Virus record (IMG/VR): IMGVR_UViG_3300025723_000013
Strand: one strand, 5' to 3'
DNA: 64,000 bases
Source of the DNA: a virus
Lineage: Duplodnaviria > Caudoviricetes
This document shows positions 49,339 to 49,440 of this stretch, one piece after another. Position numbers and translations under genes: made by a program. The notes beneath the pieces were generated by a model that saw nothing but the letters and a program-made list of their open reading frames with translations, was not told the origin of the DNA and searched no databases. Position 1 is the stretch's first letter, and the number at the start of each line of letters is the position of its first letter.

Positions 49339-49440
49339 TGGTGCAGCTGGGAGGATTCGAACCTCCATGGGGAATTATATTCTCCCTTTCCCGCCAGATT
49401 CTGCAGAATCTCCGGAGCTATTCCGTTCGCTTACAGCTAC
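49339..49440 (-). tRNA. Aberrant 102-nt tRNA-like RNA (anticodon unassignable)
   Basis: 7-bp acceptor GTAGCTG/CAGCTGC, A-CCA end, T arm GGAGG-TTCGAAT-CCTCC, D arm with GG; palindromic AGATTCTGCAGAATCT in anticodon position; ~27-nt variable region. Confidence 0.65.

What the first reader, a model, noticed from the sequence alone, without database searches (positions are those of the whole stretch)
49339..49440. 102-nt tRNA-like RNA with palindromic, non-readable anticodon arm
Acceptor stem, D arm, T arm and CCA are intact. The anticodon arm is a perfect 16-nt palindrome (AGATTCTGCAGAATCT) giving a 6- or 10-nt loop instead of 7, with a 2-nt bulge and a ~27-nt variable region. It is isolated from the main cluster, just upstream of the HExxH paralogs. 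Inference: a non-translating tRNA mimic (decoy for anticodon nucleases or uncharged-tRNA sensors, dimerising RNA, amino-acid donor) or a frameshifting tRNA.
Basis: partly seen in the sequence, partly recalled or inferred. Interest (0 to 1): 0.7.

Follow-up and report, generated by a model that had tools for sequence, protein, structure and literature searches.

The report
Anticodon-less leucine-tRNA look-alike of phages
This 102-base gene of an uncultured giant phage makes an RNA built like a leucine tRNA but with a plain hairpin where the anticodon loop should be; it belongs to a large, conserved, undescribed phage family that almost certainly cannot read codons and whose job is unknown.

Summary
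Window 49339-49440 (minus strand) folds as a tRNA with intact acceptor stem, D arm, T arm, A73 and CCA. The anticodon arm is replaced by a 25-nt bulged hairpin holding the 16-nt palindrome, and an 18-nt extra arm follows. It is neither an assembly error nor a recent mutation. The nearest relative, a 326-kb phage contig, has a 102-nt homologue whose hairpin has a different sequence but pairs in the same register. A pattern scan found 111 stretches in IMG/VR. In 66 aligned members 95.9% of pair cells are paired and 21 of 31 pairs show double changes. All five giant contigs searched carry one copy. The nearest normal tRNAs are tRNA-Leu (20 of the top 23 non-family hits). A73 and U48 are invariant and CCA is encoded in 55 of 66. 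The first hairpin varies freely in length and loop. The extra arm keeps an NUA triloop in 52 of 66. In 44 of 66 members a sigma-70-type promoter starts transcription at base 1; the window copy lacks one. Best reading: a non-decoding tRNA-Leu mimic, possibly leucine-charged, function unknown. The closest known are T5 RNA1 and T4 rnaC. The scan noted similar Leu-shaped RNAs on other phage DNA, but not this family.

The parts
49339..49440 (-). Whole tRNA-like RNA gene, 102 nt, ending in encoded CCA
   Evidence: Sequence; fold; Rfam tRNA 26.3 bits; family model R2 90.6 bits
49434..49440 (-). Acceptor stem, 5' strand (RNA positions 1-7)
   Evidence: Pairs with 49343-49349. In the family, 6 of 7 pairs show changes on both sides and 100% of cells are paired
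49416..49431 (-). D arm (positions 10-25): AGC / GAACGGAAUA / GCU, with A14, A15, G18G19, A21
   Evidence: The loop is one nt shorter before GG than the family consensus AAAUUGGCAAA, which matches the T4 tRNA-Leu loop AAAUUGGUAAA at 10 of 11 positions
49391..49415 (-). Hairpin 1, in the place of the anticodon arm (positions 26-50): CCG-G-AGAUUC-UGCA-GAAUCU-GG-CGG. The 16-nt palindrome is at 49396-49411
   Evidence: The relative L001 pairs in the same register, with 5 pairs changed on both sides and 2 on one side. Loop and length vary across the family
49369..49386 (-). Hairpin 2, in the place of the class-II variable arm (positions 55-72): 7 bp with one bulged A and triloop AUA (49376-49378). 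It is flanked by GAAA (49387-49390) and AU (49367-49368); the last U is U48
   Evidence: NUA triloop in 52 of 66; the inner helix covaries in all 4 pairs
49350..49366 (-). T arm (positions 75-91) with loop UUCGAAU
   Evidence: UUC and the C-G, C-G, U-A pairs of the stem are invariant in 66 of 66
49339..49349 (-). Acceptor 3' strand (49343-49349), discriminator A73 (49342), CCA (49339-49341)
   Evidence: A73 is present in 66 of 66 members and encoded CCA in 55 of 66
49549..49561 (-). Terminator-like hairpin plus T run after the upstream cupin gene, 108 nt before the RNA. It is context only, and no promoter-like site lies between it and the RNA

Best explanation
This is a real, conserved, stand-alone gene for a small RNA that descends from a phage tRNA-Leu and has given up decoding. 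Shown: it keeps the tRNA upper body (acceptor stem, D/T elbow, A73, CCA). The anticodon arm is replaced by a longer bulged hairpin whose tip is free to vary, often a plain GNRA- or UUCG-type cap. The variable arm is enlarged and keeps an NUA triloop that normal tRNA-Leu genes of the same phages lack. The giant genomes searched carry one copy each. Most members have their own promoter placed so that transcription should start at base 1. Inferred, about 50% odds: host tRNA enzymes treat it as a tRNA. This means 3' trimming to the encoded CCA and charging with leucine by LeuRS, which in E. coli needs A73 and the D/T core but neither the anticodon arm nor the variable arm. Inferred, low odds each: once made it works off the decoding path. 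It could be a leucine donor or carrier, or a body-double that occupies a protein that reads tRNA-Leu (LeuRS, EF-Tu, or a host defence enzyme acting on the acceptor end or body). In either case the conserved triloop arm would be the handle for a second, unknown partner.
For: Homologue in the nearest relative with a re-paired hairpin: (100% of cells paired; 6 pairs changed on both sides, against 0-1 when the 3' partner is slid).
Family size: 111 IMG/VR stretches and 75 distinct sequences.
Covariation in 66 members: 95.9% of cells paired against 76.1% in shuffles; 416 cells changed on both sides against 125.
Independent single-sequence folds give two hairpins in 66 of 67.
Score gap: family 69-107 bits, everything else at most 46.8 bits.
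Leu ancestry: 20 of the top 23 non-family hits are tRNA-Leu, with T4 tRNA-Leu first. The family consensus D loop matches the T4 tRNA-Leu D loop at 10 of 11 positions.
A73 66/66, U48 66/66, G18G19 66/66, CCA 55/66. Ten members found without the collection pattern keep A73, U48 and GG.
LeuRS rule: A73, A15-U48, G18G19 and A20a are needed; tRNA-Leu variants lacking the anticodon and variable arms stay active (PMC9976931).
One copy in each of 5 giant contigs.
Promoter: in 44 of 66 members the -10 hexamer ends 5-7 nt before base 1; background is 0.34 per offset.
The NUA triloop is absent from the variable arms of 25 canonical long-armed tRNA-Leu of the same loci.
Against: No transcript, processing or charging was observed for any member.
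The window's own copy lacks the family's promoter. Its D loop is one base shorter before G18G19 than the consensus, which could matter for LeuRS.
Part of the D-arm invariance is circular, because the collection pattern fixed those bases.
The 66-member alignment was fitted to the model, so its pair counts lean towards the structure.
No partner was found. There is no phage L/F-transferase or class-Ia synthetase in 5 giant contigs. The neighbours are only a shuffled syntenic block.
The LeuRS identity rules come from E. coli and Aquifex; the host here is unknown.
Confidence: 0.72

Rival explanations
1. It is a cis-acting 5' module and not a trans-acting RNA. The tRNA-like fold sits right after a promoter and ahead of tRNAs or protein genes. 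It would serve only as a processing signal or a protective structured 5' end for the transcript, with no job of its own once cut off.
For: In most members the promoter starts transcription at base 1, and tRNAs or ORFs with a ribosome-binding site follow within 5-80 nt. In the window a gene starts 73 nt downstream.
Against: A processing signal would not need A73, U48, an encoded CCA in 55 of 66 members, or a conserved NUA triloop. The downstream gene differs between lineages (dCMP deaminase, zincin, ThyX block, tRNAs).
Confidence: 0.12
2. It is a decoding tRNA of unusual shape. It would be either a frameshift or quadruplet reader using the first hairpin, or a Tyr/stop-codon reader using the NUA loop of the second hairpin as its anticodon (GUA, AUA, CUA, UUA).
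For: NUA would pair with UAN codons. One subfamily has a CAU-type loop CYCAUAG on hairpin 1.
Against: Hairpin-1 loops run from 3 to 15 nt and many are GNRA or UUCG caps. The arm is three or more base pairs longer than an anticodon arm. In hairpin 2 the would-be positions 32-38 and 33-37 covary as Watson-Crick pairs (U-A to C-G, A-U to U-A), so the loop is a closed triloop. Position '33' is C in most members. Only 2 nt separate the arm from the T stem. Long ORFs read through normally under code 11.
Confidence: 0.04
3. It is a decaying tRNA-Leu pseudogene or an assembly artefact with no function.
For: It falls below the Rfam threshold, ARAGORN does not call it, and this copy has no recognisable promoter.
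Against: Compensatory changes occur in every helix across 66 members. There is a single copy in each of 5 giant contigs, and A73 and U48 are invariant. Most relatives have a precisely placed promoter.
Confidence: 0.04

Closest known systems
Phage T5 RNA1 (AY543070 30501-30644, annotated 'tRNA-like stable RNA with unknown functions'); also T5 RNA2
   Same: It is phage-encoded and lies beside tRNA genes. It has a tRNA-type acceptor stem and T arm, a Leu-type D loop (GAAUUGGUAGA), a hairpin in the variable-arm position, and an anticodon region too large to decode. Its function has never been found.
   Different: T5 RNA1 is 144 nt and still shows a CUUAAAA anticodon-loop remnant around a large insert. 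It has no NUA triloop. It scores only 22.7 bits with the family model, below real tRNAs of T5, so homology beyond common tRNA-Leu descent is not shown.
Phage T4 rnaC (species 1 RNA, 139 nt) and rnaD
   Same: They are small stable RNAs encoded at the end of the T4 tRNA cluster. rnaC has a T arm, a hairpin before it and a long rod further upstream. They are described as 'RNAs of yet unknown functions' and confirmed by Northern blot (PMC9697503).
   Different: rnaC has no recognisable D arm or CCA-ended 7-bp acceptor in the annotated form. Its score is only 12.9 bits with model R1, so it is not a detectable relative.
Bacterial and phage class II tRNA-Leu (Rfam RF00005)
   Same: The acceptor/T/D core, A73, A15-U48 and a long extra arm are shared. 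tRNA-Leu genes are the best non-family hits of the family model.
   Different: There is no 5-bp stem with a 7-nt loop, no U33 and no Leu anticodon. The arm is extended by a 3-bp helix and a bulge. The extra arm is longer and has an NUA triloop that tRNA-Leu genes of the same phages lack.
Minimalist tRNA-Leu substrates of E. coli LeuRS (Larkin et al. 2002, as reviewed in PMC9976931)
   Same: These are RNAs that keep A73 and the D/T-loop core but lack a functional anticodon arm. They are still leucylated in vitro.
   Different: They are laboratory constructs. Here nature keeps two elaborated hairpins, and charging is untested.
tmRNA
   Same: It is a tRNA-like acceptor/T module used for something other than ordinary decoding.
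   Different: tmRNA has G3.U70 alanine identity, pseudoknots and a tag reading frame. This RNA has A3-U70 and is 102 nt with no ORF or pseudoknot, and ARAGORN's tmRNA search finds nothing.

Membership tests
Canonical tRNA (Rfam RF00005) | 7-bp acceptor stem, discriminator base, CCA end | tested here: met
   In the family 100% of acceptor cells are paired, with 6 of 7 pairs covarying
Canonical tRNA (Rfam RF00005) | D arm with A14, G18G19, A21 and T arm with UUCRA loop (the elbow) | tested here: met
Canonical tRNA (Rfam RF00005) | 5-bp anticodon stem with a 7-nt loop, U33 and purine 37 | tested here: not met
   The arm is 3 bp, a bulge, then 6 bp with a 4-nt loop UGCA. No register gives 7 nt. 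Only 2 of 66 relatives have a 7-nt loop, and both have G at position 33
Canonical tRNA (Rfam RF00005) | Score at or above the curated gathering threshold; called by a tRNA finder | tested here: not met
   26.3 bits against 29; ARAGORN is silent
Bacterial tRNA-Leu | Discriminator A73 | tested here: met
   Window position 99 is A. It is A in 66 of 66 family members and in 14 of 14 members from an independent collection
Bacterial tRNA-Leu | A15-U48 pair, G18G19 and A20a in a Leu-type D loop | tested here: inconclusive
   All are present. However, the D-loop bases were fixed by the collection pattern, and the window's loop is 1 nt shorter before GG than the consensus. U48 was not in the pattern and is 66/66
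Bacterial tRNA-Leu | Closer to tRNA-Leu than to other isotypes | tested here: met
   20 of the top 23 non-family hits of model R2 in 895 kb are tRNA-Leu. A crude core-identity ranking also puts Leu first, though weakly
Bacterial tRNA-Leu | Leu anticodon (NAG or YAA) in a 7-nt loop | tested here: not met
   Absent in the window. Only degenerate UAAAA or CAAAA remnants occur, in a few relatives such as L006, L037 and L098
Bacterial tRNA-Leu | Charged with leucine by LeuRS | not testable with these tools
   Inference only, from PMC9976931
Phage tRNA-like stable RNAs (T5 RNA1/RNA2, T4 rnaC) | Phage-encoded, tRNA-type acceptor and T arm, oversized non-decoding middle | tested here: met
   Searches compared
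Phage tRNA-like stable RNAs (T5 RNA1/RNA2, T4 rnaC) | Detectable homology to a described member | tested here: inconclusive
   R2 gives 22.7 bits on T5 RNA1 and R1 gives 12.9 bits on T4 rnaC. Both are below the scores of ordinary tRNAs
Phage tRNA-like stable RNAs (T5 RNA1/RNA2, T4 rnaC) | Accumulates as a stable small RNA during infection | not testable with these tools
+1 frameshift suppressor tRNA | 8-nt anticodon loop on an otherwise normal 5-bp anticodon stem | tested here: not met
   The arm is extended and bulged, and loop length is not conserved (3-15 nt)
tmRNA | G3.U70, pseudoknots, tag-peptide reading frame | tested here: not met
   A3-U70; no tmRNA found by ARAGORN -m

The most novel reading that the evidence does not exclude
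The family is a leucine-charged but non-decoding tRNA. Host LeuRS loads it, and a dedicated partner uses it off the ribosome, either as a leucyl donor or carrier or as a charged decoy against a host enzyme that attacks aminoacyl-tRNA ends. The partner would recognise the conserved NUA triloop arm. Transcription starting exactly at base 1 would give it a 5'-triphosphate that marks it apart from RNase P-processed tRNAs.
Probability: 0.15. Interest if true: 0.85.

Novelty: new variant of a known kind. Interest (0 to 1): 0.6.

Why it matters
Phages T4 and T5 have been known for about fifty years to make tRNA-like stable RNAs whose purpose is still unknown. This finding shows that a well-defined relative of that idea is common in uncultured giant freshwater phages: an anticodon-less tRNA-Leu body with its own promoter and a conserved extra-arm triloop. 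It is under clear purifying selection and is kept as a single-copy gene. The family gives a tractable, sequence-defined object (about 100 nt, more than 75 natural variants, clear invariant and free parts) for asking what such mimics do. Candidate roles are charging without decoding, sequestering a tRNA-binding protein, or countering tRNA-directed host defences. It also matters for annotation. tRNA finders either miss these genes or miscall them: 7 of 70 were called 'tRNA-Pro' and 2 were given a four-base anticodon. Rfam has no family for them.

Tried and rejected
1. DNA searches of cultured phages (INPHARED) with the 1.2-kb region and with a common family member found no match. No cultured carrier is known.
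2. Exact 28-mer and 37-mer scans of IMG/VR found nothing, or only the one relative. A degenerate D-arm-to-T-arm pattern was needed.
3. The same pattern in 185,579 species genomes gave 3 hits, of which one is real: a Crocinitomicaceae MAG contig. This is a weak host hint, and the TTGACA/TATAAT-type promoters argue against it.
4. A search for a partner gene by neighbourhood clustering over 93 loci found only a shuffled syntenic block. It holds a metallophosphoesterase, a PTP-like phosphatase, a small GNAT/MCD-like protein, dCMP deaminase, ThyX and a zincin-like protein. None of these except the zincin is in the window's 64 kb. Only 14 of 77 phosphoesterase loci hold the RNA within the DNA fetched around them. 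I rejected the idea that the GNAT is a dedicated aminoacyl-transferase partner as unsupported.
5. L/F-transferase (PF03588) and class-Ia synthetase (PF00133) were each absent from 5 of 5 giant contigs.
6. Reading hairpin 2 as the true anticodon arm, with hairpin 1 as an insert at position 26, was rejected. Its loop-closing pairs covary, and only 2-3 nt would remain for the variable loop.
7. Dimerisation through the palindrome was rejected because it is not conserved.
9. Six literature searches found no description of this family. The library is open-access only, so absence is not proof.

Full report
**1. What is in the sequence**

The minus strand of window 49339-49440 is a 102-nt tRNA-shaped sequence.
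- It has a 7-bp acceptor stem, U8 and a D arm (AGC / GAACGGAAUA / GCU).
- It has a T arm (GGAGG / UUCGAAU / CCUCC), discriminator A73 and an encoded CCA.
- Between the D and T arms lie 49 nt where a class I tRNA would have about 23.

The minimum-energy fold (-35.8 kcal/mol, z = -2.4 against shuffles) makes two hairpins of this stretch.
- Hairpin 1 (49391-49415) directly follows the D stem. It has three base pairs (CCG/CGG), a 1x2 internal loop (G against GG), six base pairs and the loop UGCA.
- Hairpin 2 (49369-49386) has seven base pairs with one bulged A and the triloop AUA. GAAA precedes it and AU follows it.

No register of hairpin 1 gives a 7-nt loop. ARAGORN does not call the gene, with or without intron search. 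Rfam's tRNA model matches the acceptor, D and T parts at 26.3 bits, under its 29-bit threshold, and jumps over the middle. Two numbers need adjusting: the loop is 4 nt in the best fold, and the variable region is 24 nt.

**2. It is not an error or a one-off**

The window matches no cultured phage, and no whole genome is held for it. It looks like part of a giant phage: all large ORFs are on one strand, one ORF is 3,717 aa, and there are eleven tRNA genes.

A neighbouring PfkB-type kinase gene led to a 326-kb IMG/VR contig with 57-59% protein identity. In a matching position that contig carries a 102-nt homologue (L001 5407-5508).
- Its acceptor, D arm, hairpin 2 and T arm are nearly identical to the window's.
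- The 25 nt of hairpin 1 differ at 16 positions, yet every pair is kept in the same register.
- Five of those pairs changed on both sides and two on one side. The loop changed from UGCA to CCGG.
- Sliding the 3' partners by 1-3 columns drops pairing from 100% to 34-52%.

**3. A large family**

A degenerate pattern spanning the D arm to the T loop, with a gap too long for ordinary tRNAs, found 111 stretches in IMG/VR, giving 75 distinct sequences of about 100-118 nt. A covariance model built from the window and L001 alone recognises 65 further members at 40-78 bits.

A second model, R2, built from 67 members, separates the family from everything else in 895 kb of phage DNA. The family scores 69-107 bits (the window 90.6), and the next best score is 46.8 bits.

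On the 66-member alignment:
- 95.9% of pair cells are standard pairs, against 76.1% in shuffles.
- 21 of 31 pairs have changes on both sides.
- 416 cells carry such changes, against 125 in shuffles.
- All 500 shuffles and all slid versions score lower.

That alignment is fitted to the model. As an independent check, single-sequence folding of the stretch between the D and T arms gives exactly two hairpins in 66 of 67 sequences. All five giant contigs searched (326-365 kb), four of them estimated at least 93% complete, hold exactly one copy. ARAGORN calls only 9 of 70 members, 7 as 'tRNA-Pro' and 2 with a four-base anticodon.

**4. What varies and what does not**

Hairpin 1 keeps its three basal pairs and an asymmetric internal loop. 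Its distal stem and loop vary freely. Loops run from 3 to 15 nt and include GNRA caps (GUGA, GGGA, GUAA, GAAA), UUCG, UUU, and YCAUA in one subfamily. A 7-nt loop occurs in only 2 of 66, with G where U33 should be. Self-complementary tetraloops like the window's occur in 5 of 66, so the palindrome is a local accident.

Hairpin 2 also varies in length, and the four pairs of its inner helix all covary. Its loop is NUA in 52 of 66 members (AUA 25, UUA 13, CUA 9, GUA 5) and AUU in 5.

A73 and U48 are invariant, each 66 of 66. Encoded CCA is present in 55 of 66, and the T loop UUCRA is fixed. U8, A14, A15, G18G19 and two D-loop adenines are also invariant. That invariance is partly circular, because the collection pattern fixed those bases. 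Ten members found without the pattern still keep A73, U48, GG and an NUA or AUU triloop. These are L022 and nine from loci fetched through a phosphoesterase gene.

**5. Ancestry**

Of the 23 best non-family hits of model R2, 20 are tRNA-Leu genes (anticodons UAA, UAG, CAA), led by the tRNA-Leu of phage T4. Two are long-armed tRNA-Ile(UAU)-like genes that ARAGORN misses, and one is the window's own long tRNA-Ile.

The family consensus D loop (AAAUUGGCAAA) differs by one base from that of T4 tRNA-Leu (AAAUUGGUAAA). A few members still show UAAAA or CAAAA in hairpin 1, as in the anticodon loop of tRNA-Leu(UAA/CAA), but on a degenerate stem.

Compared with tRNA-Leu, the arm has gained a 3-bp basal helix plus a bulge. 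The variable arm has grown and acquired the NUA triloop. None of 25 long-armed canonical tRNA-Leu genes from the same loci has that loop; theirs are mostly GNRA.

**6. Transcription**

I aligned the upstream flanks of the 66 members at base 1. This shows TTGACA-like and TATAAT-like hexamers with the -10 element at -12 to -7 and T at -1 in 89%.

By a fixed rule, 44 of 66 members have such a promoter with the -10 ending 5-7 nt before base 1. At offsets 30-149 the rule finds 0.34 per offset. Most members are therefore their own transcription units, and the predicted start coincides with the mature 5' end. This implies a primary 5'-triphosphate end and no need for RNase P. That last step is inferred from spacing, not shown. 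Downstream lie either further tRNAs or protein genes.

The window's copy is an exception. No promoter-like site lies between a terminator-like hairpin (49549-49561) and the RNA. Its expression is therefore less certain than that of its relatives.

**7. How it most likely works**

*Shown.* It is a conserved, single-copy, tRNA-Leu-derived gene whose anticodon arm cannot present an anticodon at the normal distance or in a normal loop. Ordinary decoding is excluded, and so is frameshift decoding.

*Inferred.* The elbow and the CCA-ended acceptor stem are what RNase Z or exonucleases, the CCA enzyme and EF-Tu read, so the RNA should be handled as a tRNA.

For E. coli LeuRS, identity rests on A73, the A15-U48 pair, G18G19, A20a and the D/T-loop contacts. 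Neither the anticodon nor the variable arm is required, and tRNA-Leu variants lacking both arms are still charged unless A73 or the D/T contacts are broken (PMC9976931). All of these marks are present here. I put leucylation at about even odds. The reasons for caution are an unknown host, a window D loop one base shorter before GG, and no experiment.

The conserved NUA triloop is not explained by LeuRS and points to a second partner. What the RNA does after that is open. It could be a leucyl donor or carrier, a sequestering agent for a tRNA-Leu-binding protein, or a decoy for a host enzyme that acts on the tRNA body or 3' end.

I found no partner gene.
- The neighbours are a rearranged syntenic block of nucleotide-metabolism and unknown genes.
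- None of its common members except the zincin-like gene is in the window.
- Five giant contigs encode neither an L/F-transferase nor a class-Ia synthetase.

**8. Rivals**

- *A purely cis-acting 5' module* fits the position after the promoter. It does not explain A73, U48, CCA or the triloop.
- *A decoder that uses hairpin 2 as its anticodon arm* is contradicted in three ways. The loop-closing positions covary as Watson-Crick pairs, C sits at the would-be position 33 in most members, and only a 2-nt link separates the arm from the T stem.
- *A pseudogene or assembly error* is contradicted at the family level by sections 2-4.

**9. Comparison with what is known**

The closest described objects are the 'tRNA-like stable RNAs with unknown functions' of phage T5 and the species 1 RNA (rnaC) of T4.
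- T5 RNA1 is 144 nt and has a Leu-type D loop, a CUUAAAA remnant, a hairpin in the variable-arm position and a T arm.
- T4 rnaC is 139 nt and is still called of 'yet unknown functions' in a 2022 omics study.

The architecture is alike, but homology is not demonstrable: 22.7 and 12.9 bits, below ordinary tRNAs. Rfam has no family for it. Six literature searches found no description.

Earlier notes of this scan report other non-decoding tRNA-Leu-shaped RNAs in Bacteroides, crAss-like and other phages. Sequence look-ups with the window RNA and with a common member hit no earlier window. So the theme has been seen before on other DNA, but this family has not. I file it as a new variant of a known kind.

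**10. Verdict**

This is a real and interesting RNA family with an unknown function. The main weaknesses are the lack of any expression or charging data and the missing promoter in this particular copy.

Noticed in passing
L057:1317-1416 and L079:1143-1241 (IMG/VR loci): These are tRNA-Ile(UAU)-like genes of about 100 nt with a normal CUUAUAC anticodon loop and a long extra arm whose loop is CAGAUAA. ARAGORN does not call them. They sit 150-600 nt upstream of the family member and have the same design as the window's 95-nt tRNA-Ile at 57535-57629.
   Followed up: partly
Loci L001-L148, canonical tRNA-Leu genes: Of 52 distinct tRNA-Leu genes called in these phage loci, 27 have a short 5-6-nt variable loop (class I shape, about 77 nt) and not the long arm expected of bacterial tRNA-Leu.
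   Followed up: no
window 55538-55607 (-): Rfam tRNA hit of 35.4 bits that ARAGORN does not call, just beside tRNA-Arg.
   Followed up: no
window 17377-28530 (-): A single open reading frame of 3,717 aa, by far the largest in the window.
   Followed up: no
IMG/VR, relatives of L086:2966-3565: More than 600 viral contigs match a peptide pattern from this 200-aa metallophosphoesterase and encode a relative of it; the 80 best kept are 88-100% identical. This phage lineage is therefore very abundant in the sampled freshwater metagenomes. Only 14 of 77 such loci hold the tRNA-like RNA within the DNA fetched around them.
   Followed up: partly
L001 contig (IMGVR_UViG_3300032240_001991): CheckV rates this 326-kb contig, the window's nearest relative, as only 36% complete. 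Either the estimate is off or the genome is far larger.
   Followed up: no
window 46989-49266 (-): The tandem 233-244-aa HExxH genes just downstream belong to a phage-only family with no Pfam match. Their Atlas model has only weak SprT-like or zincin structural neighbours (TM 0.3). Homologues follow the RNA in about 20 relatives.
   Followed up: partly
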